Notes: generated from the sequence alone by a model not told the origin. A stretch of 64,000 nt of DNA from a virus (IMGVR_UViG_3300011962_000024:1-64000); one strand, 5' to 3'. Positions 1 through 28,082 are shown, counted from the stretch's first letter. Program-made: numbers and translations.

Positions 1-33
1 CACCGCTAAGTGACTGGATTTCTTGAGGTTTTT

Positions 34-78
34 TGGTCGGGACGGAGTGATTCGAACACTCTACCCCTTGCACCCCAT
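34..78 (-). repeat. att site: 3' half of tRNA-Pro(GGG), left copy with one mismatch
   Basis: Reverse complement reads ATGGGGTGCAAGGGGTAGAGTGTTCGAATCACTCCGTCCCGACCA (anticodon loop, T arm, CCA). The 5' half of the tRNA is absent. Similarity to the right copy extends back to position 1 (terminator). Confidence 0.9.
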
Positions 79-205
79 ACAGGTAATTACCCGTCCGAGC
101 AAATCCAATGCAATCCAAAGCCAATGGTCAAGCCATTGATTTTACTGGCATTCAGCCTTTTGACCGTCCAAAATGCTCCGAAGCCATACGAACAAAGCCG
201 ATCTC

Positions 206-258
206 AATTGGCAACCAATTGGCAACCAGGCAATCTCAATTGGCAACGAATTGGCAAC
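206..258 (+). repeat. Four copies of AATTGGCAAC (206, 217, 238, 249), likely integrase arm-type sites
   Basis: Two tandem pairs at 11-bp spacing between att and the integrase start. The same pair recurs at 27928 and 27939. Confidence 0.7.
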
Positions 259-274
259 GGAGAAGCATGACTTA

Positions 275-1630
275 ATGGCCAAGATTACAGATCGCCAGAT
301 GACCGCCAAACCCGGCGCGAGTGACAAGTGGCTGAGCGAGGTCGCCATCTGGGGGCACGGCAGCTTGGTCGCGCGCATCACACCCAGTGGCGAGCGTCTT
401 TTCTATTTTCGCTACACCAATAGCAGCGGGGAGCGCGTTACCTACCCAATCGGCACATATAGCCGTGAAGGCAAGGAAGGCACCATGACTCTGGCAGAAG
501 CGGGTGTACGGGCCAAAGAGCTGGCTGGCTTACACAAGTCCGGGGTGCGAGATATTCGTGAGCACCTGGAGGCCGAAGAGTCGGCACGTGTCGCTGCCCG
601 TAACGCGGAGATCGCTCGACTGGCTGCGGAAAAGGCCGCATTCGAAGCGGAACAAGCTCGGCACGCGGCAAGAAAGACAGTCACTGAGCTCTTTGAGCAC
701 TGGGCAAATGTCGATCTGATCAATCGAAAGGATGGAGGCTCTGAGGTTCGCCGGATGTTTGAGAAGGACGTCCTGCCATTTTTGGGGGAGATGGCCGTGG
801 CCGACGTGAAAAAAGGCCACATCACCGAAGTGACCGACGCCCTCCTCACTCGGGGCGTCAATCGCATGGCCAAGATGATATTTAGCCTGATGCGTCAGAT
901 GTTCCGTTTTGCTGTGGACCGGGATCTGATTGAGCATGATCCAACTGCCAGCATCCGCAAGGCTAAGATCGGTGGTAAAGATATCGAGCGTGACCGAGTG
1001 TTGAGTGACGATGAAATCCGCACCCTAGCCAAACTAGCTCCTGAGGCCGGTTTGTTACTGTCCACCGAAGCAGCAATTTGGATCACCCTCTCCACCTGCT
1101 GCCGCATTGGCGAGCTGCTCAACTCACGATGGGAGCATCTTGACCTTGCAAAAGGGATTTGGACGATTCCAGCCGAGAACAGCAAAAATGGTAAGCCACA
1201 TAGCGTTACTCTGTCCTCGTTTGCTATTCGAAGATTTGAATTACTCAAGTCCCTCAATAATCATTCCGAGTGGGCATATCCTAATACTAATAATAGCGGG
1301 CCCGTTTGCACAAAAACTGTTACCAAGCAGATCGGCGATAGACAACGCCTACCAGGCCAGGGGGTACTGAGCAATAGAAGCGCCAATGCCCAAGCACTGC
1401 TTCTTCCAGGGGGAAAGTGGACCCCTCACGACTTGAGACGAACAGGCGCAACAATCATGACAGCTCTCGGCGTGCTTCCCGAAGTGGCTGAGCGCTGTCT
1501 TAACCATACAGAGGAAAACAAGGTCAAACGTACCTATCAACGGCATAGCTACACAAAAGAAATGGGCGCAGCTTGGAAAACCCTCGGCCAACACCTTGAA
1601 AAATTAACCAGCCCAACGGATACCGCATAA
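275..1630 (+). CDS. int: Tyrosine recombinase/integrase (P4-like, with N-terminal arm-binding domain)
   Basis: Motifs CRIGELL, NSKNG, HDLRR, LNH and C-terminal Tyr. Start moved to ATG 275 (MAKITDRQM) because the upstream in-frame stretch is the repeat array. Confidence 0.93.
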   Translation: MAKITDRQMTAKPGASDKWLSEVAIWGHGSLVARITPSGERLFYFRYTNSSGERVTYPIGTYSREGKEGTMTLAEAGVRAKELAGLHKSGVRDIREHLEAEESARVAARNAEIARLAAEKAAFEAEQARHAARKTVTELFEHWANVDLINRKDGGSEVRRMFEKDVLPFLGEMAVADVKKGHITEVTDALLTRGVNRMAKMIFSLMRQMFRFAVDRDLIEHDPTASIRKAKIGGKDIERDRVLSDDEIRTLAKLAPEAGLLLSTEAAIWITLSTCCRIGELLNSRWEHLDLAKGIWTIPAENSKNGKPHSVTLSSFAIRRFELLKSLNNHSEWAYPNTNNSGPVCTKTVTKQIGDRQRLPGQGVLSNRSANAQALLLPGGKWTPHDLRRTGATIMTALGVLPEVAERCLNHTEENKVKRTYQRHSYTKEMGAAWKTLGQHLEKLTSPTDTA

Positions 1631-18600: not shown

Positions 18601-18870
18601 CTCGTCAAGCAGCCGATGACGAGCCCAACTGAACTTGCCGTCACTCTCGAGTAGTACTCCGTCCACACCCTCCGGCAGCTGCACATCCTTGCGGGAGGTG
18701 ACAATTACCCGCTCTTCATTATCGAAGCGTCTCAATGGCTGCTTGATCTTCGCCGACACGTTGATTGAGGTTTCGACGACGAGTGAGACCTGGAGCGCCG
18801 GACGGATCTGATGCCGAACAGCACCAATCGAATATCGCTCTTCAAAAATAAGTGCGGGTAGCGTGAACAT
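15613..18870 (-). CDS. SF2 (DEAD/DEAH) helicase with a long C-terminal region ending in a PD-(D/E)XK-like nuclease
   Basis: LRPPQ, MPTGTGKT, DEAHH, TATP, EGFD, QFVGRFTR. C-terminal DDDSAGEAADLV...IHCKYS. Confidence 0.8.
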   Translation of the reverse strand: MFTLPALIFEERYSIGAVRHQIRPALQVSLVVETSINVSAKIKQPLRRFDNEERVIVTSRKDVQLPEGVDGVLLESDGKFSWARHRLLDEFHKHRAAVGPTAHSREISACWNGKVRFVAETRESGQSGWGLRPPQLGALHAIGAHWSLERAPATIVMPTGTGKTETMLAALAAYARDPILVVVPWDALREQTANKFITFGLLRSIGVLPADVPNPIVGIMKKRPKTQADLLMFEHCNVVVATVGSIGASLPTAVLEGLASRCKALILDEAHHVPATSWTHLKDAFRGIPTLQFTATPFRRDTQLVDGKVIFNYPLGAAQRDDYFKHIRFEPVQASPQDADRAIAEVAVRQLRSDLDQGLDHLLMARCSSIARATIVAELYQAIAGDLSPVLIHSESEEAQLRLAALKKRAAKIVICVGMLGEGFDLPQLKVAAVHDMHRSLAILLQFVGRFTRVAGERIGNATVVANIGDKSVSDALERLYSEDADWNVILSEMSSAAARDHAELVAFLQASKRFDDYGRSDSIVLSPHLLRPKFSTAVYRARAFAGERFHFGLPTNLTLQAVWQHEQSPTVYFVTRAESRVRWTNTKGVLDCEWALFVLHHDVEQGLLYLSSTNHDSLFPELAEAVAGEAVLIKGEQMFRSLGHINRLMLQNIGVKKHGRRNLSFAMYTGGDVDEALGLTERHNSVKNNVSGTGWEEGARVSVGCSVKGRVWSRDQGSIPALINWCRRVGTKLLDDTINIENIIANVLVPSEIEEFPATKIVLAIEWPAELLGVSEDRIALCPMGQEDAQPLYMYELFFVSLTTGLLQFALVAGEDDRVGEFELRLDAQLGFKVQQTGGDPLTISIGKRSWRLDEYFCSYPPLVRFVDLSELDGNLLIQPRNPRELTLDAAQFEPWDWTGFDLTKESYWKDGVGRKDSIQWKVAQAYMDGNFDVVFDDDSAGEAADLVCLKEEGDVIRLVMIHCKYSGAATKGERIKDAVEVCSQAVRSAKWKWRFVDLCRHLLGREERLKSFVRPTRFFQGSAARLNELLRQSRFKSIAAEVLIVQPGISATSRSEDQDMVIAAAMAYLKETIGCDLQVICSQ

Positions 18871-18928: not shown

Positions 18929-19177
18929 TTAACCGAGATCTCGCTGCGCTATCCTGCCCCGGATCCACTCTTGAACTTCGCTTTCAACCCAGCCAACACT
19001 CCGACCAACCAGGGGAACTGGTTTTGGGAATCCCCCCTCACCAGTGAGCTCTTTACGCCCAATACCAGGCGTTGCATGAGGTGCTAACTGACTCCAGCCG
19101 ACTGCCGCCACTTCACGCTCGCGAAAGGCATCGTAAAGGCTTCCAGATTCGCCACGCACCATCCACATTCGACTCAT
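18929..19177 (-). pseudogene. Chimeric remnant: mrr-like restriction endonuclease N-terminus fused to an AlpA C-terminus
   Basis: MSRMWMVRGESGSLYDAFREREVAAVGW (Mrr-like N-terminus) followed by GGFPKPVPLVGRSVGWVESEVQEWI (AlpA tail). Confidence 0.7.
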
Positions 19178-19200: not shown

Positions 19201-20673
19201 TCAGTCAACCACTTCTGATCTAGGCAGACTCAAAGATACCTCTCGAAAAGCAAGCAGTGCCGCTTCGAGATGCTCAATGATCTCCTGCTGGAGAACATCC
19301 GGTGGCGGCAGATCTTCAAGGTTGTCCAGGCTGTCGTCCTTGAGCCAAAAGATGTCGAGACTGGCCTTGTCGCGCGCCATTAGTTCTTCGTAGCTGAAGA
19401 ACTTGAACCGATCAGTAGCCACTCGCTCGTGACGATTTTCCGGGTTGTAGCAGGTGATGAAATCCTGCAAATCGTCCAGCTTGAGCGGGCGCGTCTTCAG
19501 AGTGAAGTGCTTATTGGTGCGCAAATCGTAGAACCAGATGCCCTTGGTGTGTGTCTGCCCATCCTTGGGCTTGGCGTCGAAAAACACCACATTGGCCTTC
19601 ACGCCCTGGGCGTAGAAGATGCCGGTGGGCAGGCGCAAAATTGTGTGTACATCGCAGTTCAGCAGAAGCTTGCGCCGAATTTTTTCGCCTGCCCCGCCTT
19701 CAAACAGAACGTTATCTGGCAACACCACTGCCGCTTTACCGTCCACCTTAAGCATGCTGACGATATGTTGCAGAAAGTTGAGCTGCTTGTTCGACGTGGT
19801 TTCCCAGAAATCCTGCCGCTCGTAAGTCAGCGCTTCCTTATCTTCATCGCCCTCTTCATTGGTGATGGTCATGCTGCTCTTCTTGCCGAAGGGCGGGTTG
19901 GCCAGCACGTAATCCACCTTGCGTTTGGGCTCGGAGATCAGGGCATCAGAACGCTCAACAGAAGGCTCCCCGTACAGTTCACCAATGTTGTGCAGGAACA
20001 GGTTCATCAAGCACATGCGGCGAGTGTTCGATACGATTTCATTGCCGTGGAAAGTCTGGTCACGCAGAAATTCTTTCTGGCGTTTGTCCAGCTTGGCACC
20101 CGGGCGCGTCAGCCAGTTGTACGCGCCCAGGAAAAAGCCGCCGGTGCCGCAGGCCGGGTCGGCAATAGTTTTCATCGGTTCGGGCCGCACGCAGGCAACC
20201 ATGGCATCAATCAGCACGCGTGGCGTGAAATACTGGCCAGCACCGCTCTTGGTGTCTTCGGCGTTCTTCTGCAACAGACCTTCGTACAGATCACCCTTGG
20301 TATCGGCATCCAGGCTGATCCAGCTTTCGGCATCAATTAATTGCACAAGGCGGGAGAGTTTTGCCGGGTCCTGAATTTTATTTTGTGCCTTGAAGAAGAT
20401 GGCGCCTAGCATACCCGGCTCGTTGCCCAGCTTGTGCAGTGTGGCCAGGTAATGAGCCTCCAGCGGCTCGCCGACCTTGGAAGTCAGGCTCGCCCAGTCA
20501 TAGCCCTTGGGGATGTGGGTGTCCCGGTTGTAAGGCTCCTGCGCATATTCATGCGCCAGCTTTAAAAACAGCAGGTAGGTGAGTTGTTCAAGGTAGTCTC
20601 CGTAGCCCACGCCGTCGTCGCGCAGGGTGTTACAGAAGTTCCAGACTTTCTGGACAAGGGTACTTGTGTTCAT
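19201..20673 (-). CDS. hsdM: Type I R-M methyltransferase subunit M
   Basis: GAGQYFTPR, DPACGTGGF, ANPPFG, LRLPTGIFY. Confidence 0.95.
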   Translation of the reverse strand: MNTSTLVQKVWNFCNTLRDDGVGYGDYLEQLTYLLFLKLAHEYAQEPYNRDTHIPKGYDWASLTSKVGEPLEAHYLATLHKLGNEPGMLGAIFFKAQNKIQDPAKLSRLVQLIDAESWISLDADTKGDLYEGLLQKNAEDTKSGAGQYFTPRVLIDAMVACVRPEPMKTIADPACGTGGFFLGAYNWLTRPGAKLDKRQKEFLRDQTFHGNEIVSNTRRMCLMNLFLHNIGELYGEPSVERSDALISEPKRKVDYVLANPPFGKKSSMTITNEEGDEDKEALTYERQDFWETTSNKQLNFLQHIVSMLKVDGKAAVVLPDNVLFEGGAGEKIRRKLLLNCDVHTILRLPTGIFYAQGVKANVVFFDAKPKDGQTHTKGIWFYDLRTNKHFTLKTRPLKLDDLQDFITCYNPENRHERVATDRFKFFSYEELMARDKASLDIFWLKDDSLDNLEDLPPPDVLQQEIIEHLEAALLAFREVSLSLPRSEVVD

Positions 20674-20674
20674 C

Positions 20675-21487
20675 TCAGGCCTCTAAGAGCTCTTGTATCC
20701 ACGGATGGGCTTCGCTTCGCTGCCCCCGCAGAAGAAAATGCATATCGCCGCTATAAGGTGAATCACGGTCAATTGCGCGCCGCAGTCGCGCTGCTACCGC
20801 CTTGAAGTCGCCCACACGATTTGGATCGTGTGTGGCCAGATCAAACAAGCGTTTCCCTTCATCCACGTCCGCCATCAACTGAACTGCCGCTGTGTGGCGT
20901 CGCTTGCATGTCGGCTCGTAGTGCAAGTGATAGATCTCGATGGACTCTTCAGCCCGCCGCCGGGAGGTAGGATCAGTACTGGTCGCGCACGGTTGACCGT
21001 TCTCTTGATGACAGCCGAGTAGGCGCCAGTCGGATATTTCACAAGGGTCGAGCAGCATTGGCTGCTCCGCCGCCACTGGCCCGGCCGCGTAAACACGCTG
21101 GGCTTCATTGACCAAAGGAAAACGATCCGCCTTGCCGCCCGCGGTGCCTCCCTCCTGATCTTTGCGCCGGCTGTTGCAGTAGGTACAGGCATAGCGAAAG
21201 TTACTTTCGTCAAAGGTCAGCCAACGGTAGCCAGCGTGCGGGTTGGCCGCATCGCTGACACAGTTCTTTGGCCGAAAGTGATCAACGGCGTTGTCCGACC
21301 GATCCACGTGTGTTTCGCAGTACCAGCATTTGTCATGTAAAAGGCTGGCTAGCCCATCTTTGAGTTCGCGCCAGACAACACCGTGGTCATTCGGGTCAGC
21401 GCCGTTTGCAACAGCCTGCGATGCCGTTTGTGCACGCTGGTTCCAGCCCGTAGGTTTGACCAGCTTTGAGCGGTCAACGTACCTCAT
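20675..21487 (-). CDS. HNH endonuclease (PtuB/Septu-like)
   Basis: KCWYCE...VDHFRPK...GYRWL...NFRYACTYCN, KADRFP, LLDPC. Confidence 0.85.
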   Translation of the reverse strand: MRYVDRSKLVKPTGWNQRAQTASQAVANGADPNDHGVVWRELKDGLASLLHDKCWYCETHVDRSDNAVDHFRPKNCVSDAANPHAGYRWLTFDESNFRYACTYCNSRRKDQEGGTAGGKADRFPLVNEAQRVYAAGPVAAEQPMLLDPCEISDWRLLGCHQENGQPCATSTDPTSRRRAEESIEIYHLHYEPTCKRRHTAAVQLMADVDEGKRLFDLATHDPNRVGDFKAVAARLRRAIDRDSPYSGDMHFLLRGQRSEAHPWIQELLEA

Positions 21488-23232
21488 GGAGCATCCTCTT
21501 TAGAGGCCTCGGGCTTATCAGCCAATAGTTCGGCAATCAAACGCTTGGCCAATGCCTCTCGCTCAGCGCGCGGCATCTGCACCACTTTCTTCGCCAAGGC
21601 CACAGGCTGCTCGGTTTCAAACTGCTGAACAAGCAGCGCATTCCGCAAACGTAGGTAACGCGAATACTCGTCGTCCGGATGGAAAAAACGGAATCCAAGG
21701 CGGTCTAGCTGCGCGTTGATGCGATCCAGATCTTGCTGCTCTTGGTCTGCCAGGGTCTCCTTGGCAGCAAAAGCACGCTGAGCCTCCAACAGTTCTTGTG
21801 TTGGCAGATCAAGGGAAGACGCAATGCCAAACATGTCGCTGGTGACAATGGCTGCATAGCCCATTCCGCGCGGCGCCATTTCCGGATAACACGCCACAAT
21901 CTGACGCTGTCCATCCTTCTTGGTCATCCGCAGAATCTGCACCTGTTCGCGATCCAGTTCTGCAATGGCCAGCGGGTTATGAGTGGTGAGCAGGATATGG
22001 CTGGTTTCTTCCTGCTTTGTGCCGCTGGCGATGAACTGCTTCAAGTACGAAATGTAGTCAACACTCCACCTTGGATTCAAATGCGTGTCCGGCTCATCCA
22101 GCAAAAAAAGGCTTTCATCCTCGGCGGTAAAGCGCAGCAGGCCCAACACGGTCAGCAATTGCTGCTCACCCTCGCTCAGTTCTCGGAACGTAACGCTGCC
22201 ATCGTTTTTCTTCAGGCGCACACGGATGCGCACCTCCTCGATCAACTCTGAAACGTAGGTGCTCTCCAAGTCTCGGAAAAATTGTGCCGGCTGCTGCTCC
22301 CCAACCAGGCGCCGAAGGGCCCCAATATCCTTGACGTACAAATACTGGAACTCTGTTGTCTCCTTGTTCCAAAGCGTAACTTGCTTGTCCCGCCTTACCC
22401 TGATAGGGGCTAAAGAAATGCTTTGCAGGCGATCGAGGAATGTCTGAACAACTCCTTTTGCCCCCCAAAACCTTTCGTCACCAGCGCCATCAACCTTCTT
22501 ATTCCCGCGTCGCTTGCTCCAACCAGGCTGTTTCAAAACAAAGAGAACTGACTCGACCCCTTCGTCAGGATCAATGCCCATATTGTTCTCCAGAAGCTCT
22601 CGAACTTCTGGAGACTGCTTAATCATGAAGGCCAGCAACACGAATTGGCTGTGGACAGGCATTGCATAGAACAGTCGCTTCAATCCGGGGTCTTCACCGT
22701 TGCGCAGCTTACTGTCGTAGTTCTCGAGGTAAGGCCGAAATACCTCGTGCATGCGCGGGCTCTCGCCCGAGTAGTAGCTAAACACGTAGCGTGGCAGGTA
22801 CTCACTGTCCGCATTCAAGAAAGCCGTGAGTTTGATGGCATTGCCACGCAAGGCCGACAACGGCTGCTCGATGTCGATGATTGGGATCAGAATGCCTTCA
22901 CCACGGGCTTGCGCATCCGTCGCAACGTGAATGGTGAAAGGCTCTTTCTCACGATCCGGATCGGCATCAATGTGAATGTGCCGCAGATTCTCGCCCGCCC
23001 CCATGCGATAGGCCAGTTGGAAGGCGAAACCGGGAGTGCGCTTCTTGGCGATCAGGTCGCGGAAGATAATGGCTAACGCTTCCAACACGTTGGACTTGCC
23101 GGTGCCGTTCCAGCCGATTACCACTGTCACCCAGTGATCCTGATCGAAGTCGATGGTGACGTTTTTCAGGTTCTTGAATTGGTGCGTTGGGCTGTCCTTG
23201 ACGCTGCCAATGGTGAGTTTGTCCAAGCGCAT
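21484..23232 (-). CDS. ABC-type (AAA_21-like) ATPase, PtuA/Septu-like, restriction-system associated
   Basis: Walker A GWNGTGKS, signature LSEGE, Walker B LLDEPD, H-loop TTHNP. Confidence 0.88.
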   Translation of the reverse strand: MRLDKLTIGSVKDSPTHQFKNLKNVTIDFDQDHWVTVVIGWNGTGKSNVLEALAIIFRDLIAKKRTPGFAFQLAYRMGAGENLRHIHIDADPDREKEPFTIHVATDAQARGEGILIPIIDIEQPLSALRGNAIKLTAFLNADSEYLPRYVFSYYSGESPRMHEVFRPYLENYDSKLRNGEDPGLKRLFYAMPVHSQFVLLAFMIKQSPEVRELLENNMGIDPDEGVESVLFVLKQPGWSKRRGNKKVDGAGDERFWGAKGVVQTFLDRLQSISLAPIRVRRDKQVTLWNKETTEFQYLYVKDIGALRRLVGEQQPAQFFRDLESTYVSELIEEVRIRVRLKKNDGSVTFRELSEGEQQLLTVLGLLRFTAEDESLFLLDEPDTHLNPRWSVDYISYLKQFIASGTKQEETSHILLTTHNPLAIAELDREQVQILRMTKKDGQRQIVACYPEMAPRGMGYAAIVTSDMFGIASSLDLPTQELLEAQRAFAAKETLADQEQQDLDRINAQLDRLGFRFFHPDDEYSRYLRLRNALLVQQFETEQPVALAKKVVQMPRAEREALAKRLIAELLADKPEASKEDAP

Positions 23233-23234
23233 AC

Positions 23235-25061
23235 TCAGGCCGCCAACAGTTTCAACTTGTCATACAGCTTGCGGCCCTGCGCATCGGTCACAGCCTCCAC
23301 TGCAAGCCGGCCTGCCTTGTCGAGCTTGCGCAGCTCGGCATACAGCTCTTCAATACGTTCGGTCAGCGCACCGTCGGCTACACCACAGCGGCGGAAGGCT
23401 TCTTGCGCCGGTACCCAGCCGCCCGCCTCGGCAAGCACGTCGATCAATCGGCTCACCACGGTGGCGATCTCCTTTCCTTGTTTGGTTTTACGCGGTTTGG
23501 GCTGCTTGGCGCGTTCCGCCCTCTCGGCACGAATGCGCTCCAGCAGTGCACTGGCCGGGGCGTCGTTCGGGTCTTGAGGCACCAGTTGCCCAGCGAAGGC
23601 GGCGCGAAGAATGTTTTGGCGTTGGGCGGTGGATTGTTTGAGAGCAAGATCAATGGCTTTCAATTGCGCTGCCGCTTCGCTCTCTGCTTCACTCAACAGT
23701 TGAATAGCTGAGACTTGTTCGTCCATTGGTGGCACAGGGACCGCGAGATTAATAAATCTTCCAAGGCTAACCTTTTTCTGTGCAACACCTTGTGTCATTG
23801 GCCTGATCTGGCTCTTACCAATTTCAGAGTTAATAGCAGCCTTTAAGAACCCGGCAATCATCAAGTTTGGTTCACAACGAATCTTTATACAGTCGGCGGT
23901 AATTACAGCTGGCGGCTGATTTTCAGGATATACATCCGCGTCACCAGGTGGCTCACCCATTTTAGTTACCAAAACATCACCAGACTGGATGCGATGAGCA
24001 TTCAATTCCTCGGCTTTTTCCGGCGTCACGTACTTTGTGTATTCGCCTCCGTAGTTACCACTTCGAATATTCCGCACAAATACAAGTGGGACGCCCGAGT
24101 CACGATAATCAGGAACCTTAAGATTACTGCCAAAGGGGCCAATGGCGAGGCTGTATCTTTCATCTGAGGAAATCTGCGCCACACTCGCCCACGCCCACCC
24201 TTCCGGCAGTTCGGGCAAATCGGTGGTGTCAGGCAGCACCGGCTCGGGGTATTTCTTCTGCCAGTCCTTGGGCGGTGTTTTGCCTTGCCCCTTGAACCGG
24301 GCGAGCTGCCTGGCCTCCCAGCGGACGCGGCGCTCGATAAGGATGCGCGCCAGCAGTTGAGCGCCGGTTTCGGATGGCGGGTTTTTGATCCGCCATTCGG
24401 CAGTAAGCGCTCCCTCCACGGCGGATTTCAGCAGCGATTGCCGGTATTGCTCCAGCTTATTCTGCGCGGCCTTTAGTTCTGCCACTCCGGCATCAAGGTC
24501 AGAAAGCAGCTCTTCGAGCTTGGCGACGATACGGGTTTGTTCCGTAGCGGGGGGGAGGAGGAATGGGATGGTTTTAGCCAGATTCTTTGAAGAAATGCTG
24601 GCTTGATTCACGTGGTTGGTACAACGATGCTTCATGTACCCTGCCATCCACAGAAAATGCAATTGCCGGGCGACAAAGACGGAGTTCACCCCATCCTCAG
24701 GGCGAATGCGGGTCATGTGATTAGAGAAGGCAAAGCCGCCTTCACGAGCAGAAACTACCGCAGTCTTGCCAACTAACTCGGCAGAGTTTGTATTGTTGAA
24801 TAAGACGTCACCCTGGCGAAGTTCAATGCCATGGCTCTCGGCCACTGACTTGACAACTTTCAGATCGATCTGACCATCACGGTCGACATTCATAGGTCGA
24901 AGGTGTGGTACTCCGGCACCAGCGGAGTTGTGTTTTCCGCTGGCAAAGCCAGGACTCACATCCGCTGATACTTCTTCCAGAGACACAAGACTCCAACTCA
25001 ATGGCAGAGTGATATTGGCAAAGGGATAGCTCTGCATTGCGACGTCGCTAAACTCACTCAC
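23235..25061 (-). CDS. hsdS: Type I R-M specificity subunit S with a C-terminal extension
   Basis: Two TRDs with PP..EQ..I helical spacers, AFAGQLVPQDPND. About 80 extra residues at the C-terminus. GTG start overlaps the hsdR stop. Confidence 0.92.
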   Translation of the reverse strand: MSEFSDVAMQSYPFANITLPLSWSLVSLEEVSADVSPGFASGKHNSAGAGVPHLRPMNVDRDGQIDLKVVKSVAESHGIELRQGDVLFNNTNSAELVGKTAVVSAREGGFAFSNHMTRIRPEDGVNSVFVARQLHFLWMAGYMKHRCTNHVNQASISSKNLAKTIPFLLPPATEQTRIVAKLEELLSDLDAGVAELKAAQNKLEQYRQSLLKSAVEGALTAEWRIKNPPSETGAQLLARILIERRVRWEARQLARFKGQGKTPPKDWQKKYPEPVLPDTTDLPELPEGWAWASVAQISSDERYSLAIGPFGSNLKVPDYRDSGVPLVFVRNIRSGNYGGEYTKYVTPEKAEELNAHRIQSGDVLVTKMGEPPGDADVYPENQPPAVITADCIKIRCEPNLMIAGFLKAAINSEIGKSQIRPMTQGVAQKKVSLGRFINLAVPVPPMDEQVSAIQLLSEAESEAAAQLKAIDLALKQSTAQRQNILRAAFAGQLVPQDPNDAPASALLERIRAERAERAKQPKPRKTKQGKEIATVVSRLIDVLAEAGGWVPAQEAFRRCGVADGALTERIEELYAELRKLDKAGRLAVEAVTDAQGRKLYDKLKLLAA

Positions 25062-27838
25062 GCCACCAAGTCCTCATTCAATTCATTCATCAGCGTATCC
25101 AGTTCCTTGCCGAACAGGCCCCAGGCTTTCTGCAAACCACCGTTATCGGCCAGTTCGGCGTAATCAAAATCGTCGCGGCTAATGCTGCAACTGCTGGCAA
25201 TATGCTCTTTCATCAGGCGCAGCCATTCAGTCTGCTCCGGTGTGAACGCGGTGCCGCGCAGGGCATTGTGGCGGAAGATCCAAGCTTGGAAACGTTTGTC
25301 CACTTCGTCAGCAAAGGGCTTGAGTTCGCCATCCAACCCCAGCGCAAAGCGCACCAAAGACACCAGGTCAGTCAACTGCCGTTTGCGGTCTACGCCTTTC
25401 ACGGCCGAGGTCTGCACCCGGGCATAGGCGCCCCAAAGTCGCTCGGTAGTGAGCATCAATGGCGGTTTGCTCAGGTGTGCGTGGAGGTCTTCCAGCATGT
25501 CAAAGGTAAGCGCACGGCGTTGGTAGGGCTGTTGGTAGAAAAAGCCCAGCGCGGCGATTTCATCCTTGTGCTGAGCGATGTAGTCGGCAAAGGTCTGAAT
25601 CACCGCCTTGGCCTGCGTTTCGGCCTGCTCACTGAACCCGCTGAAGGTGACCTGATCGAGGTTGATGTGGTCGATGAGCTGCTCGCGCTCGCGGCGGGCG
25701 CTTTCGATTTCGTCGCGCAGTTCCGGCTTGTCGAAGGGCGCGCAGGCAGCAGCAACGCGCTCAGCTCGGGCGGCTTCAATCTCTTCGAGCAGCAAGGTGT
25801 CCTCAGAGCGCGTGATGCCTTTGGCCTCGGCCGTGACTAGCGCAGCTTGCACGATAGCGTCCGGGTCCAGCGCAGCGATCAGACCTTTGCCGAGTTCACC
25901 TATTGAAATGCCACCGCTGACCTTCTCGATGCGCGCCTGTGCTTTGTCGTCCAGCTGCTTGGCCAGTCGCACAAGTCGGTTGGCGAGCGAGAGCACGGTG
26001 TCGTCGTCGCGACTACCCATGGCCACGCCTTGCAGCAGGTTCTTGAGAGCCATGCCGGGCTTTTTCTCCAGCGGGCGGCTTTCGGTCTTGAGGCTTTTTT
26101 CCACGCCCACGGCGTCGATTAGGACGAAGCGGGTCTTGGCACCATCAGCGCTGTTGTTGACACGCTTCAGGCTTTCGCCATCGAGGCTGCGCACACCACG
26201 CCCCTTCATCTGCTCGTAGTAACCCTTGCTGCGCACGTCACGTATAAATAGCAGCACTTCAAGCGGCTTCACGTCGGTGCCGGTGGCAATCATGTCCACG
26301 GTGACGGCAATGCGTGGGTTGTAGTCGTTGCGAAAGCTGCTGAGAATGCTGTCGGCGTCTTCCTCAGCACGGTAGGTGACCTTTTTGCAGAAAGCGTTGC
26401 CCTGGCCATAGACCTCGCGCACGATGTTGATAATGTCGTCAGCGTGACTGTCGGTTTTGGCGAAAATCAAGGTCTTGGGTGTTTCTTTGCGCGCCGGGAA
26501 AATCTGCGTTTCCACCGCCGTTTTCATCGCCTGAATCACCTGGCGGATCTGGCTCACGTTGACCACCGATTTATCCAGCTCCTTGCCGGTGTAGGTGGTG
26601 TCTTCTTCGGTTTCACCCCAACGTTTTTTGCGGGTGGCGCGGTCGCGATGGTCTACCCACTCTCTGGCCTTCAGCTCCGCGCCCTTCTGGGTGATCTCGG
26701 TTTCGATCTCAAACACGTCGTAGCCTACGTTGACACCATCCGCCACGGACTGCTCGTAGGTGTACTCAGCAACGATGTTTTCGTTGAAGAAGCCGAAGGT
26801 GCGTTTGTCAGGTGTGGCGGTGAGGCCTATCAGGCTGGCATCGAAGTAATCGAGCACCTGCTTCCACAGGTTATAGATGCTGCGGTGGCATTCATCGATG
26901 ATGATGAAGTCGAAGGTTTCCACCGGTACGGCCGGGTTGTAGCGGACGAGCTTTTCCTGCTTGGCGGTTTGCTGTACTTCGTTGAGCGAAACATCCTCGG
27001 CAGTCTCATCAATCGGCTCACCACTCAGAATCGAGTACATGCGCTGGATGGTGCTGATGCACACCTGCGAATGCGGATCGATGTTGGGCGAAGCCAGCCG
27101 CTGCACGTTGTAAAGCTCGGTGAACTTGCGGCCATCATCTGGAGGCGTATAGGCCATGAATTCCTGATGCGCCTGCTTGCCGAGGTTGCGGGTGTCGACC
27201 AGGAACAGGATACGCTTGGCGCCACCGAACTTGAGTAGGCGATAGACCGAGGTGATGGCGGTGAAGGTTTTGCCCGCGCCGGTGGCCATGTGCACCAAGG
27301 CGCGAGGTTTGTTCAATGCCAGTGATTTTTCCAGCCCGGTAACGGCGCTGATCTGACAGTCGCGCAGATTTCTTTCTGGCAGCGCTGGCATTTGTTCGGC
27401 CAGACGGCGACGGAGGGTTTCAGGCTGCGCCAGCCAGGCGGCCAGCGTTTCCGGCTTGAAGAAGTGGAAAATTTCGCGCGAACGCGGCACCGGATCGGCG
27501 CCATCGGTAAAGCGGATGATCTTGCCGGTTGCTTCAAACAGGAAACGCAGCGGTGCATTGTCTTGGCGATGTTTGAGCGTGGCGTTGGCGTAGCGCTCCG
27601 TTTGGCTTTCTGTGACTGTGAGGTTTACCCCCGCGCCGTCTTTTTTAGCTTCAATTACCCCGACGGTGACCCTGTCAACAAAAAGCACGTAATCCGCAGG
27701 CCCAGAATCAGTCGGAAACTCTCGCACAGCCACGCCACGAGCCGCACCTAAATTAAGCTGCTTCACGTCCTGGATGACCCAGCCAGCTTGTTGTAGCTTC
27801 TGGTCAATCTGCTGACGTGCTTCTGATTCTGGCGTCAT
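25058..27838 (-). CDS. hsdR: Type I restriction endonuclease subunit R
   Basis: ADYVL...VIEAKK nuclease motif, MATGAGKT, DECHR, TATP, MIATGTD, QMKGRG. Confidence 0.95.
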   Translation of the reverse strand: MTPESEARQQIDQKLQQAGWVIQDVKQLNLGAARGVAVREFPTDSGPADYVLFVDRVTVGVIEAKKDGAGVNLTVTESQTERYANATLKHRQDNAPLRFLFEATGKIIRFTDGADPVPRSREIFHFFKPETLAAWLAQPETLRRRLAEQMPALPERNLRDCQISAVTGLEKSLALNKPRALVHMATGAGKTFTAITSVYRLLKFGGAKRILFLVDTRNLGKQAHQEFMAYTPPDDGRKFTELYNVQRLASPNIDPHSQVCISTIQRMYSILSGEPIDETAEDVSLNEVQQTAKQEKLVRYNPAVPVETFDFIIIDECHRSIYNLWKQVLDYFDASLIGLTATPDKRTFGFFNENIVAEYTYEQSVADGVNVGYDVFEIETEITQKGAELKAREWVDHRDRATRKKRWGETEEDTTYTGKELDKSVVNVSQIRQVIQAMKTAVETQIFPARKETPKTLIFAKTDSHADDIINIVREVYGQGNAFCKKVTYRAEEDADSILSSFRNDYNPRIAVTVDMIATGTDVKPLEVLLFIRDVRSKGYYEQMKGRGVRSLDGESLKRVNNSADGAKTRFVLIDAVGVEKSLKTESRPLEKKPGMALKNLLQGVAMGSRDDDTVLSLANRLVRLAKQLDDKAQARIEKVSGGISIGELGKGLIAALDPDAIVQAALVTAEAKGITRSEDTLLLEEIEAARAERVAAACAPFDKPELRDEIESARREREQLIDHINLDQVTFSGFSEQAETQAKAVIQTFADYIAQHKDEIAALGFFYQQPYQRRALTFDMLEDLHAHLSKPPLMLTTERLWGAYARVQTSAVKGVDRKRQLTDLVSLVRFALGLDGELKPFADEVDKRFQAWIFRHNALRGTAFTPEQTEWLRLMKEHIASSCSISRDDFDYAELADNGGLQKAWGLFGKELDTLMNELNEDLVA

Positions 27839-27992: not shown

Positions 27993-28028
27993 AAAAAATC
28001 CAGTCACCGCTAAGTGACTGGATTTTTT
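27993..28028. terminator. tRNA-Pro downstream intrinsic terminator, duplicated with att
   Basis: AAAAAATCCAGTCAC-CGCTAA-GTGACTGGATTTTTT. A partial copy starts at position 1. Confidence 0.85.
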
Positions 28029-28037
28029 AGGGTTTTT

Positions 28038-28082
28038 TGGTCGGGACGGAGTGATTCGAACACTCGACCCCTTGCACCCCAT
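28038..28082 (-). repeat. att site: 3' half of tRNA-Pro(GGG) at the island/prophage junction
   Basis: Reverse complement reads ATGGGGTGCAAGGGGTCGAGTGTTCGAATCACTCCGTCCCGACCA. No 5' tRNA half follows. Confidence 0.9.

What the first reader, a model, noticed from the sequence alone, without database searches (positions are those of the whole stretch)
19201..27838. Type I R-M operon with an ABC-ATPase + HNH (Septu/PtuAB-like) pair built in between hsdS and hsdM
Seen: hsdR-hsdS-ATPase-HNH-hsdM is one tightly coupled unit. The junctions are a GTGA overlap, a 2-bp gap, an ATGA overlap and a 1-bp gap. The ATPase has all ABC motifs and the HNH has a CxxC/DH..P/N..CxxCN signature. No reverse transcriptase is present, so this is not a retron. 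Established: PtuAB acts alone as Septu or is held inactive by a retron until triggered, and PrrC is an ABC-type tRNase held inactive by a Type I R-M enzyme until phage anti-restriction proteins disturb it. R-M-associated ATPases have been noted bioinformatically. Inference: here the R-M complex replaces the retron as the guard, and the ATPase/HNH pair is a fail-safe that fires when Ocr/Ard/Stp-type inhibitors hit the restriction enzyme. I know of no experimental characterisation of this arrangement, but could not search.
Basis: partly seen in the sequence, partly recalled or inferred. Interest (0 to 1): 0.78.

Follow-up and report, generated by a model that had tools for sequence, protein, structure and literature searches.

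The report
Septu nuclease pair wired to HsdS
An intact type I restriction-modification operon carries a genuine Septu ATPase/HNH-nuclease pair directly behind a specificity gene (hsdS) that has gained a small winged-helix tail seen only where this Septu branch follows, so the two defence systems look like one built unit, though how they work together is untested.

Summary
On the minus strand, hsdR-hsdS-ptuA-ptuB-hsdM (27838-19201) is one tightly packed operon. The junctions and the ATPase and HNH motifs are exactly as described.

The ATPase and nuclease are full-length Septu PtuA and PtuB by PADLOC profile. PtuA is also confirmed by fold.

New here:
- In 77 of 77 informative related loci (5 phyla, two different type I backbones), ptuA starts 1-17 bp after hsdS, or overlaps its last 11-14 bp.
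- Every such HsdS ends in a conserved ~70-aa acidic winged-helix tail.
- The tail is absent from all 12 HsdS examined from the same R-M family that lack ptuAB.
- In 1.84 billion representative proteins the tail occurs only at HsdS C-termini.
- 19 of 43 informative loci have no intact hsdR beside them, so the constant partner is HsdS/HsdM, not the restriction subunit.
- The hsdS-hsdM gap of this R-M family is also a general cargo slot (Fic, GmrSD, RloC-like, DarTG and others).

Best reading, inferred and about 0.45: PtuAB is docked on the methylase core through the tail and acts as a PrrC/Ronin-like back-up effector.

Embedding of defence systems in R-M loci is published. I found no description of the HsdS tail or of this obligate linkage.

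This scan has already reported the same coupling on other DNA (at least 8 earlier findings).

Verdict: a new variant of a known kind.

The parts
25058..27838 (-). hsdR, type I restriction subunit (926 aa). It carries an N-terminal nuclease region, an SF2 helicase and an EcoEI_R_C domain. It looks intact.
   Evidence: Pfam ResIII, DEAD, Helicase_C and EcoEI_R_C. PADLOC REase_I. GAGKT at 187 and DECH at 315.
23235..25061 (-). hsdS, specificity subunit (608 aa) with two target-recognition domains
   Evidence: Pfam Methylase_S, two stretches. PADLOC Specificity_I, 336 bits. Related to EcoKI HsdS 2y7c, E 3.6e-24.
23235..23489 (-). 3' end of hsdS. It encodes a basic linker and a ~70-aa acidic winged-helix tail (HsdS aa 525-608) found only in ptuA-linked HsdS.
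   Evidence: Conserved in 49 genome loci. AF2 model pLDDT 85.6 with H-b-H-H-b-b topology. Best PDB matches are winged-helix proteins. The exhaustive search finds it only at HsdS C-termini. The tail HMM misses all 12 ptuAB-less HsdS.
21484..23232 (-). ptuA, Septu-type ABC ATPase (582 aa)
   Evidence: PADLOC PDLC00302, 1111.6 bits, full length. Motifs. The AF2 model best matches retron I-A PtuA and E. coli Septu PtuA, E 1e-14 to 1e-12.
20675..21487 (-). ptuB, Septu-type HNH nuclease (270 aa). It overlaps ptuA by ATGA.
   Evidence: PADLOC PDLC00330, 359 bits, full length. CxxC / DH / CxxCN motifs.
19201..20673 (-). hsdM, type I N6-adenine methyltransferase (490 aa). It starts 1 bp after ptuB.
   Evidence: Pfam N6_Mtase (225 bits) and HsdM_N. 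PADLOC MTase_I, 655 bits. DPACGTG and NPPF motifs.
1..78 (.). Distal copy of a 78-bp direct repeat (a tRNA-like 3' end plus terminator hairpin). It bounds the 28-kb island that carries the operon.
   Evidence: 95% identical to 28005-28082. A third, partial copy lies at 82385-82435 of the record.
28005..28082 (.). Proximal copy of the direct repeat, 167 bp upstream of hsdR. It is the border between the island and the neighbouring prophage.
173..1630 (+). Tyrosine integrase of the island, next to the distal repeat
   Evidence: Pfam Phage_integrase, Phage_int_M and Arm-DNA-bind_3

Best explanation
Shown:
- The window holds an intact type I R-M operon with a genuine Septu pair (PtuA ABC ATPase, PtuB HNH nuclease) between hsdS and hsdM.
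- The operon is cargo of a 28-kb integrative island.
- This PtuA branch is always placed directly after hsdS.
- Those HsdS, and only those, end in a basic linker plus an acidic winged-helix domain.

Inferred:
- The winged-helix tail is a docking module that tethers a PtuA oligomer, with PtuB bound to PtuA's C-terminal extension, to the HsdM2-HsdS methyltransferase core.
- In the resting state PtuAB is held inactive on that core, as PrrC is held by EcoprrI, RonA by Ronin HsdMS, and retron-type PtuAB by RT-msDNA.
- When a phage anti-restriction protein (a DNA mimic such as Ocr or ArdA, or an Stp-like peptide) occupies or distorts the core, PtuAB is released or switched on.
- Its HNH nuclease then cuts a cellular or phage nucleic acid. 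tRNA-Tyr or DNA are the substrates known for other PtuAB. The result is growth arrest or abortive infection as a second line behind restriction.

HsdR is an optional addition. In this window it is present, so the locus would give restriction first and Septu as the back-up.
For: - **Identity of all five genes and tight coupling:**
- **PtuA fold:** it matches solved retron and Septu PtuA.
- **Linkage in genomes:** of 52 genome loci with PtuA at 58% identity or more, all 50 in which ptuA is matched from its first residue have an hsdS-frame ORF ending within a few bp of the ptuA start (gap 1-10 bp, or an 11-14 bp overlap). The other two are a ptuA remnant and a contig-end fragment. The loci fall into two architectures: hsdR-hsdS-ptuAB-hsdM, and hsdM-hsdS-ptuAB with an HsdM only ~38% identical. 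They come from Pseudomonadota, Bacteroidota, Myxococcota, Planctomycetota and Acidobacteriota.
- **Independent sample:** 25 of 25 metagenome loci found through the tail have ptuA 5-17 bp downstream.
- **More distant PtuA keep the arrangement:** E. coli MB06233 (found by blastn at 69% nucleotide identity) and two plasmids (PtuA 42-44% identical) show hsdM-hsdS-ptuA-ptuB, and the tail HMM still hits their HsdS at E 4e-38, 2e-8 and 1e-7. The other three plasmid hits (36-40% identity) also have an S-subunit gene annotated under or beside the match, but I did not inspect those loci.
- **Tail absent without ptuAB:** 12 HsdS of the same R-M family without ptuAB end after the basic stretch, and the tail HMM gives E > 0.06.
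- **Tail occurs nowhere else:** the exhaustive phmmer search of 1.84e9 representatives gave 116 hits. Two are false positives. All the rest lie at the extreme C-terminus of their protein, and the full-length ones are HsdS-sized.
- **Tail properties:** it folds as a winged helix (pLDDT 85.6) and is acidic (median net charge -3), whereas the linker is basic (+7). That fits protein docking better than DNA reading.
- **HsdR is dispensable:** 19 of 43 informative loci lack an intact adjacent hsdR while S-PtuAB-M stay intact.
- **Published precedents for sequestered effectors:** PrrC and Ronin and retron-held PtuAB that is toxic when displaced. Septu and retron PtuAB cleave tRNA-Tyr.
- **Expression hint:** RNA-library contigs of a near-identical strain bridge each of the S/A, A/B and B/M junctions. 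This is only a weak hint.
Against: - No interaction, toxicity or trigger was or could be tested here.
- Within the hsdR-hsdS-ptuAB-hsdM architecture, tail divergence tracks HsdM (rho 0.58) better than PtuA (rho 0.29). There is therefore no specific tail-PtuA co-evolution signal beyond linkage.
- From the R-M side ptuAB is one of many cargos in a hot spot. Only 3 of 30 homologous loci carry it.
- Stand-alone Septu needs no partner.
- No natural HsdS-PtuA fusion was found among the tail hits.
- An earlier scan note on a related E. coli locus records later odds of only 10/100 for its bold reading.
Confidence: 0.45

Rival explanations
1. HsdMS-directed nuclease. The methyltransferase core with its tail recruits or activates PtuAB on unmodified recognition sites, so that PtuAB acts as an additional or replacement restriction nuclease. 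In HsdR-less loci it stands in for HsdR. On this view it is not an abortive-infection back-up.
For: - 19 of 43 loci keep hsdM-hsdS(tail)-ptuAB without an intact adjacent hsdR, and so do E. coli MB06233 and two plasmids.
- In those loci PtuAB sits where a nuclease partner would be expected.
- Stand-alone PtuAB nicks DNA (cited).
- HsdM keeps its catalytic motifs.
Against: - In the window HsdR is intact, so a second DNA nuclease would be redundant.
- Characterised PtuAB act as toxic, infection-triggered effectors on tRNA-Tyr.
- Nothing shows that HsdR is absent elsewhere in the HsdR-less genomes.
Confidence: 0.2
2. Two independent systems. ptuAB is simply cargo in the hsdS-hsdM hot spot, kept there by co-transfer and co-expression. 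The tail belongs to the mobile cassette for another reason, for example as a regulator or as a fused antitoxin-like element that stabilises the locus. It plays no sensing role in defence.
For: - The slot holds many unrelated defence genes: Fic, GmrSD, Schlafen-like, DarT-Macro, AbiEii, a CBASS cyclase, and the PDC-S06, PDC-M28 and PDC-M62 candidates.
- This agrees with the published 'embedding' pattern.
- PtuA identity is nearly uncorrelated with HsdM identity within the hsdR-hsdS-ptuAB-hsdM architecture (rho 0.16). That points to frequent cassette exchange.
- Septu works alone in other bacteria.
Against: - Random cargo does not explain why this PtuA branch is never found away from hsdS in 77 loci plus E. 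coli and the two plasmid loci inspected.
- It does not explain why linkage to hsdS, not to hsdM or hsdR, is kept across two R-M families and gene orders.
- It does not explain why a folded 70-aa domain under clear conservation is added to HsdS only there.
Confidence: 0.2

Closest known systems
Septu type I (stand-alone PtuA/PtuB; Doron 2018; E. coli structures 8EE4/8EEA)
   Same: - An ABC ATPase plus an HNH nuclease encoded by two overlapping genes.
- Full-length PADLOC PtuA and PtuB profile matches.
- The PtuA model matches 8eea/8ee4 at E ~1e-12.
- PtuA's C-terminal ~50 aa are exchanged together with the PtuB type in most loci that carry the second PtuB type. This fits the published PtuA-CTE/PtuB-CTD interface.
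   Different: - This branch is never stand-alone in the loci examined. It always follows an hsdS that carries a dedicated winged-helix tail.
- Sequence similarity to solved PtuA is low: 22-46 bits, in the ATPase core only.
- PtuB has no sequence match in the PDB.
Type I-A retrons / Septu type II (Ec78/Eco7, Ec83): PtuAB co-opted and sequestered by RT-msDNA
   Same: - A PtuAB effector is attached to a separate sensor module encoded just upstream.
- The best structural matches of the window's PtuA are retron PtuA (9n69, 9kjx, 9nnb).
- It is a precedent that PtuA acquires extra elements to bind a partner and is toxic when released.
   Different: - There is no reverse transcriptase or ncRNA here.
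- The upstream partner is HsdS.
- The added element lies on the partner (the tail), at least as far as the sequence shows.
PrrC-EcoprrI (anticodon nuclease embedded in a type IC hsd locus, released by T4 Stp)
   Same: - An ABC-type ATPase effector is encoded inside a type I hsd operon.
- The effector family is almost always embedded, whereas most R-M loci lack it.
- An RloC/PrrC-like AAA_13 gene (PDC-S06) occupies the very same hsdS-hsdM slot in a related locus, L086.
   Different: - PtuA is a different ABC clade, and its nuclease (HNH) is a separate protein.
- The R-M family and gene order differ.
- No trigger is known.
Ronin (hsdS-hsdM without hsdR plus the 61-aa toxin RonA; 'decoy immunity', Silas et al. 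bioRxiv 10.1101/2023.04.06.535777)
   Same: - An HsdMS core is proposed to cage an effector that anti-restriction proteins release.
- Many relatives of this locus are likewise HsdR-less hsdM-hsdS-effector modules.
   Different: - The effector here is PtuAB, not a small membrane protein.
- The window's copy keeps an intact HsdR.
- The tail has no counterpart described for Ronin.
Defence systems 'embedded' in Hma, BREX, DISARM and type I R-M loci (Payne et al., bioRxiv 10.1101/2024.01.29.577857)
   Same: The general pattern, including Septu embedded in Hma and the idea that embedded ABC-ATPase systems back up the surrounding system. The cargo diversity of the hsdS-hsdM slot fits it.
   Different: That work treats embedded systems as separable. 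It states that only 0.7% of Septu are embedded in Hma. In the passages I read it does not describe a Septu branch obligately tied to hsdS or a Septu-specific HsdS domain.

Membership tests
Septu (PtuA/PtuB) | PtuA: an ABC-type ATPase with Walker A, signature, Walker B and H-loop motifs, matching PtuA profiles over its full length | tested here: met
   PADLOC PDLC00302, 1111.6 bits, profile positions 1-572 of 576. Motifs. Pfam AAA_21, AAA_15 and SMC_N.
Septu (PtuA/PtuB) | PtuA fold like the solved PtuA structures | tested here: met
   AF2 model pLDDT 77.5. The top Foldseek hits are all PtuA chains (9n69, 9kjx, 9nnb, 8eea, 8ee4), E 3e-14 to 9e-12, TM 0.33-0.49.
Septu (PtuA/PtuB) | PtuB: an HNH nuclease encoded directly downstream of ptuA | tested here: met
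   PADLOC PDLC00330, 359 bits, positions 1-270 of 271. C54xxC57, D69H70 and C101xxC104-N105. ATGA overlap with ptuA. The NCBIfam retron-type PtuB and HNH models match only below their cut-offs.
Septu (PtuA/PtuB) | A self-sufficient two-gene system with no obligatory third partner | tested here: not met
   This branch follows hsdS in 77 of 77 informative loci, in E. coli MB06233 and in the two plasmid loci inspected. Those HsdS carry a dedicated tail. Functional dependence itself was not tested.
Septu (PtuA/PtuB) | Protects against phage; ATPase and HNH activities are required | not testable with these tools
   Needs phage challenge of the cloned operon and of point mutants.
Type I restriction-modification system | HsdR (nuclease plus SF2 translocase), HsdM (N6-adenine MTase) and HsdS (two TRDs) encoded together | tested here: met
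   Pfam and PADLOC matches for all three. Catalytic motifs are present.
Type I R-M, EcoAI/EcoEI (type IB) family | HsdR reaches the NCBIfam equivalog cut-off for EcoAI/FtnUII or PRK11448 | tested here: not met
   NF046051 scores 186 bits against a cut-off of 550. NF008521 scores 371 against 729. The EcoEI_R_C domain is present. The system is therefore IB-like, not a family member by this test.
PrrC-EcoprrI type guard | The effector is a PrrC/RloC-family (AAA_13) anticodon nuclease | tested here: not met
   PtuA shows no AAA_13 match, and PrrC is not among its 25 best of 128 PADLOC families shown. A true AAA_13 gene sits in the same slot of the related locus L086.
PrrC-EcoprrI type guard | The effector is held inactive by the R-M complex and released by a phage anti-restriction factor | not testable with these tools
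   Only the genetic linkage and the HsdS tail speak for it.
Ronin | hsdS-hsdM without hsdR, plus the small toxin RonA | tested here: not met
   hsdR is present and intact in the window. No 61-aa ronA-like gene lies in the operon, whose genes abut each other.
Type I-A retron (Septu type II) | A reverse transcriptase and ncRNA next to ptuAB | tested here: not met
   No RT domain in any operon gene. The gene upstream of ptuA is hsdS.

The most novel reading that the evidence does not exclude
HsdM2-HsdS(winged-helix)-PtuAB is one holo-complex and a third regulatory mode of the Septu effector, beside the stand-alone and retron-held modes. In it a type I methyltransferase core serves as the sensor, of anti-restriction proteins or of unmodified DNA. 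HsdR is an optional accessory. The HsdR-less four-gene modules on plasmids and in E. coli would then be complete defence systems of a kind not yet described.
Probability: 0.4. Interest if true: 0.75.

Novelty: new variant of a known kind. Interest (0 to 1): 0.6.

Why it matters
PtuAB is currently known in two forms. In one it senses infection itself. In the other it is held by a retron. A branch that is hard-wired to the specificity subunit of type I methyltransferases through a dedicated adaptor domain would be a third solution.

It would also turn the long-standing PrrC idea, that R-M enzymes guard suicide effectors, from a single classical case plus Ronin into a testable and widespread design principle. 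The arrangement occurs in 5 phyla, on plasmids and on integrative islands.

The system offers a clean genetic handle: delete about 70 codons of hsdS. Tractable homologues exist in E. coli and on plasmids.

It would matter for annotation too. These loci are now split into 'RM type I' plus 'Septu', and HsdR-less copies look like orphan methylases.

Tried and rejected
- **HsdR/PtuA similarity.** The PADLOC PtuA profile PDLC00302 also hit HsdR residues 2-133 (61.6 bits). Direct BLASTP of HsdR against PtuA found nothing (best E 0.02). I take it as a profile artefact and leave it unexplained.
- **Natural HsdS-PtuA fusion.** I looked for one among the tail hits. The two long hits, P0230 and P0223, are TPR and SdrD repeat proteins, so they are false positives.
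- **Stand-alone tail genes.** The 70-76-aa hits are singletons, mostly on contigs of 0.5-5 kb, and one clusters with a 511-aa protein. They are probably fragments.
- **Profile search for the tail in metagenomes.** The tail alignment was too variable for a pattern scan. I used the single protein P0128 instead.
- **Tail-PtuA co-evolution.** Pairwise-identity correlations do not single out PtuA as the tail's partner: within the hsdR-hsdS-ptuAB-hsdM architecture, rho is 0.29 for tail versus PtuA and 0.58 for tail versus HsdM. The pairs are not phylogenetically independent, so this is descriptive only.
- **L084 extension.** Its HsdS has a different ~60-aa C-terminal extension before a PtuA-like ATPase. 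The tail HMM does not detect it (E 0.41). It is a positional analogy only.
- **Near-identical DNA.** None was found in E. coli genomes or plasmids.
- **Promoter and terminator scan.** Nothing above chance.
- **RNA evidence.** RNA-library contigs leave parts of hsdS and hsdR uncovered in two runs. This is not evidence of anything. One RNA run (X5) gives a 10-kb contig that covers the same stretch as the DNA contig with the same TRD replacement and nearly the same differences, so it may be DNA carry-over.
- **Relatives of the window's own genome.** I used the genome of L001 as the centre instead.

Full report
**1. What is there**

Five minus-strand ORFs fill 27838-19201:
- hsdR: 926 aa
- hsdS: 608 aa
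- an ABC ATPase: 582 aa
- an HNH protein: 270 aa
- hsdM: 490 aa

Pfam, NCBIfam and PADLOC identify the three hsd genes. HsdR has ResIII/DEAD helicase domains and an EcoEI_R_C domain. HsdM matches N6_Mtase at 225 bits. HsdS has two Methylase_S stretches. The catalytic motifs are intact.

The inserted pair matches the PADLOC Septu profiles over their full length: PtuA PDLC00302 at 1111.6 bits and PtuB PDLC00330 at 359 bits. All ATPase and HNH motifs are present.

An AlphaFold model of PtuA (pLDDT 77.5) has only PtuA chains as its top PDB matches. These are retron I-A complexes 9n69, 9kjx and 9nnb and E. coli Septu 8eea and 8ee4, at E 3e-14 to 9e-12. Plain sequence similarity to them is weak, at 22-46 bits.

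No reverse transcriptase is present.

**2. Setting**

The record is classed as a virus record of 82,465 bases. A 78-bp direct repeat occurs at 1-78 and at 28005-28082. It is the 3' part of a tRNA-like gene plus a terminator hairpin. Its tRNA part occurs again at 82385-82435.

The operon therefore lies on a separate 28-kb integrative island, in tandem with the prophage that fills the rest of the record. The island carries a tyrosine integrase, UmuDC-like genes, and SRAP, DUF3987, DUF932, YfjJ-like and AlpA-like genes.

Pseudomonas sp. HS-2 carries the same operon at 91-96% nucleotide identity, but with different flanking cargo.

**3. Is the linkage more than chance? The view from PtuA**

A pattern scan of one genome per species returned 52 loci whose PtuA is 58-98% identical.

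- In all 50 loci where ptuA is matched from its first residue, an hsdS-frame ORF ends within a few bp of the ptuA start (gap 1-10 bp, or an 11-14 bp overlap). The other two loci are L018, a ptuA remnant, and L047, a contig-end fragment.
- Two architectures occur. One is the window's hsdR-hsdS-ptuAB-hsdM, with HsdM at least 65% identical. The other is hsdM-hsdS-ptuAB, whose HsdM is only 37-41% identical and so belongs to a different type I family.
- The hosts span Pseudomonadota, Bacteroidota, Myxococcota, Planctomycetota and Acidobacteriota.

What stays constant is hsdS followed by ptuA and ptuB, not the R-M family or the gene order.

More distant relatives keep the arrangement. These are E. 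coli MB06233 (found by blastn at 69% nucleotide identity) and plasmids of Pseudoalteromonas donghaensis and Vibrio vulnificus (PtuA 42-44% identical). All three show hsdM-hsdS-ATPase-'hypothetical'. The other three plasmid hits (36-40% identity) also have an S-subunit gene annotated under or beside the match, but I did not open those loci.

**4. The HsdS tail**

All ptuA-linked HsdS end in a basic linker followed by a conserved segment of about 70 aa. Its invariant residues are L19, W25, Y50 and L53 of alignment A2, and mean column identity is 60%.

- **Fold.** With that alignment it folds confidently (pLDDT 85.6) as helix, short strand, helix, helix, beta-hairpin. This is a winged helix.
- **PDB matches.** The best Foldseek matches are winged-helix proteins such as TFE-alpha, Stf76, PadR/LmrR and Fur. 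The scores are weak (E ~1e-2, TM 0.5-0.58), so only the fold class is assigned.
- **Charge.** The domain is acidic (median net charge -3, range -8 to 0) and the linker is basic (median +7). This argues for protein docking rather than DNA reading.

Three tests tie the tail to ptuA.

- **(a) Absent without ptuAB.** Twelve HsdS of the same R-M family whose loci lack ptuAB end right after the basic stretch. An HMM of the tail scores them at E > 0.06. It scores the two ptuAB-linked HsdS from the same genome sample at 6e-41 and 1e-26.
- **(b) Found nowhere else.** An exhaustive phmmer search of 1.84 billion representative proteins found 116 hits. Two are repeat-protein false positives. All the others lie at the extreme C-terminus of their protein. 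The full-length ones are HsdS-sized, and the shorter ones look like fragments.
- **(c) Always followed by ptuA.** An independent metagenome sample found through the tail gave 25 loci. All 25 have ptuA 5-17 bp downstream.

The tail HMM also detects diverged tails in E. coli (4e-38) and on the two plasmids (2e-8 and 1e-7). An earlier first-stage note on this genome had guessed a docking module. The co-occurrence is now tested.

**5. The view from the R-M system**

In 401 Gammaproteobacteria genomes, 32 have an HsdM homologue at E <= 1e-100. Of the 30 loci returned, only 3 carry ptuAB. Two of the ptuAB-less loci, L079 and L081, come from the unpublished genomes G299 and G042. They enter only this count.

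In the others the order hsdR-hsdS-[0 to 3.3 kb]-hsdM is kept. The gap holds the following cargo:
- Fic/DOC genes
- GmrSD
- Schlafen/AlbA_2 proteins
- DarT-Macro
- AbiEii-WYL
- a CBASS-type cyclase
- an RloC/PrrC-like AAA_13 protein (PDC-S06)
- PDC-M28
- a more distant PtuA-like ATPase with a PDC-M62B/M01B-like partner
- nothing at all

The slot is thus a general cargo hot spot, in line with the published 'embedding' pattern. The R-M system does not need ptuAB.

**6. HsdR is optional**

Among the 43 loci with at least 3.5 kb upstream, hsdR status is as follows.

| Architecture | Intact hsdR | Remnant | None detected |
|---|---|---|---|
| hsdR-hsdS-ptuAB-hsdM (window type) | 22 | 2 | 5 |
| hsdM-hsdS-ptuAB | 2 | 0 | 12 |

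- In the window-type architecture, 7 loci therefore lack an intact hsdR.
- In the hsdM-hsdS-ptuAB architecture, I scanned the large neighbouring ORFs of 7 of the 12 hsdR-less loci (and of one metagenome locus) with Pfam. None is a type I HsdR.
- E. coli MB06233 and both plasmids inspected also lack an adjacent hsdR.

Selection thus keeps HsdS(tail)-PtuAB-HsdM, not the restriction subunit. If there is a guard, it is the methyltransferase core.

**7. Other internal evidence**

- In most loci where PtuB is of a second type (31-43% identical, PADLOC PDLC00343-like), PtuA aligns only to residue ~530. PtuA's C-terminal extension is thus usually exchanged together with PtuB. L033 and L050 are exceptions. 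This fits the published PtuA-CTE/PtuB-CTD interface.
- Pairwise-identity correlations do not show specific tail-PtuA co-evolution. Within the window-type architecture the tail tracks HsdM (rho 0.58) more than PtuA (rho 0.29), and PtuA is almost uncoupled from HsdM (rho 0.16). This points to frequent exchange of ptuAB cassettes.
- Between the two architectures, mean identity is 48% for the tail, 62% for PtuA and 41% for HsdM.
- RNA-library contigs of a near-identical cultured strain bridge the hsdS/ptuA, ptuA/ptuB and ptuB/hsdM junctions. This is only a weak hint of co-transcription.

**8. Mechanism**

Shown:
- The gene identities.
- The obligate hsdS-ptuAB linkage.
- A ptuA-specific winged-helix tail on HsdS.
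- The dispensability of hsdR.

Inferred:
- The tail tethers PtuA, with PtuB bound to it, to the M2S core, which keeps the effector silent.
- Anti-restriction proteins that occupy or distort the core release or activate PtuAB.
- PtuAB then cleaves tRNA or DNA and stops the infection.

The precedents are:
- PrrC-EcoprrI.
- Ronin, whose HsdMS suppresses RonA until ArdA or Aop1 (and, in the native host, Ocr) is expressed.
- Type I-A retrons, where RT-msDNA holds a PtuAB that is toxic when displaced.

I give the full chain about 0.45 and a physical HsdS-PtuA contact about 0.65. The rivals are:
- PtuAB as an HsdMS-directed or HsdR-replacing nuclease: 0.2.
- Functionally independent systems whose tail has another role: 0.2.

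**9. Comparison and novelty**

- Embedding of defence genes in R-M, BREX and Hma loci, and the back-up idea, are published.
- NCBIfam even holds a model named 'restriction system-associated AAA family ATPase' (TIGR04435). This PtuA matches it below the cut-off, at 143 bits against 300.
- Seven full-text searches and eight papers read gave no description of a Septu branch tied to hsdS, of the HsdS tail, or of HsdR-less hsdM-hsdS-ptuAB modules as a unit.
- Within this scan the same coupling has been reported before on other DNA, in at least 8 earlier findings. For one of them, a later check gave its bold reading 10/100.

I class it as a new variant of a known kind: a Septu effector under a PrrC/Ronin-like R-M guard.

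**10. Limits**

- There was no multimer prediction and no experiment.
- The locus samples come from pattern scans seeded with this PtuA or this tail. They cover the branch well but are not a census.

Noticed in passing
window 1-78, 28005-28082; record 82385-82435: Three copies of a tRNA-like 3' end (the first two extended by a terminator hairpin) show two elements integrated in tandem at one site. One is a 28-kb integrase-bearing island (79-28004) that carries the R-M/Septu operon. The other is a ~54-kb prophage. The 'virus record' therefore includes a non-phage island.
   Followed up: partly
window 18929-19177 (-), compared with L001 14025-15262: The 82-aa 'AlpA-like' ORF downstream of hsdM is a deletion fusion. 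Its first ~47 aa match the start of a 340-aa ORF that lies after hsdM in Pseudomonas sp. HS-2. Its last ~39 aa match the AlpA-like gene. About 0.94 kb present in HS-2 is missing here.
   Followed up: partly
window 15613-18870 (-): This 1085-aa SF2 helicase-type gene (ResIII/DEAD; weak PbeA and DndF-like hits) is absent from the otherwise collinear HS-2 locus. There the AlpA-like gene abuts the YniB-like gene. It is therefore variable cargo of the island.
   Followed up: partly
window 23658-24185 (within hsdS): In a near-identical cultured strain (DNA run X6 and RNA run X5), 526 bp of one target-recognition domain are replaced by 502 unrelated bases. The tail, ptuAB and hsdM stay 95-99% identical. 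This looks like a specificity swap inside an otherwise fixed operon.
   Followed up: no
L084 (G165:C1:2294389-2303689): A related R-M locus has, in the same slot, a more distant PtuA-like ATPase (PDLC00293, 150 bits) with a PDC-M62B/M01B/PtuB-like partner. Its HsdS (573 aa) carries a different ~60-aa C-terminal extension that the tail HMM does not detect. HsdS extensions may be a wider way of coupling ABC-ATPase effectors.
   Followed up: partly
L083-L100 (hsdS-hsdM gap of related loci): The gap between hsdS and hsdM of this R-M family is a cargo hot spot. It holds Fic/DOC, GmrSD, Schlafen/AlbA_2, DarT-Macro, AbiEii-WYL, a CBASS cyclase, an RloC/PrrC-like AAA_13 gene (PDC-S06), PDC-M28, and DUF5655/NucS-like genes.
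   Followed up: yes
window 25058-27838 (HsdR residues 2-133): The PADLOC PtuA profile PDLC00302 matches the N-terminus of HsdR at 61.6 bits, although HsdR and PtuA show no direct similarity. It is probably a contaminated profile, but it remains unexplained.
   Followed up: partly
L013, L017, L019, L022, L024, L025, L034-L040, L052, L101: Two PtuB types occur in the same operon frame (PDLC00330-like and PDLC00343-like, ~32% identical). In most of these loci the last ~50 residues of PtuA change together with the PtuB type. This fits a PtuA C-terminal extension that binds PtuB.
   Followed up: partly
L131 (E. coli MB06233, NZ_CM129883.1 3563148-3579059); L132, L133 (plasmids): HsdR-less hsdM-hsdS(tail)-ptuA-ptuB modules occur in an E. 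coli chromosome and on mobilizable or conjugative plasmids. They are annotated only as methylase, S subunit, AAA ATPase and hypothetical protein. They would make convenient experimental models.
   Followed up: partly
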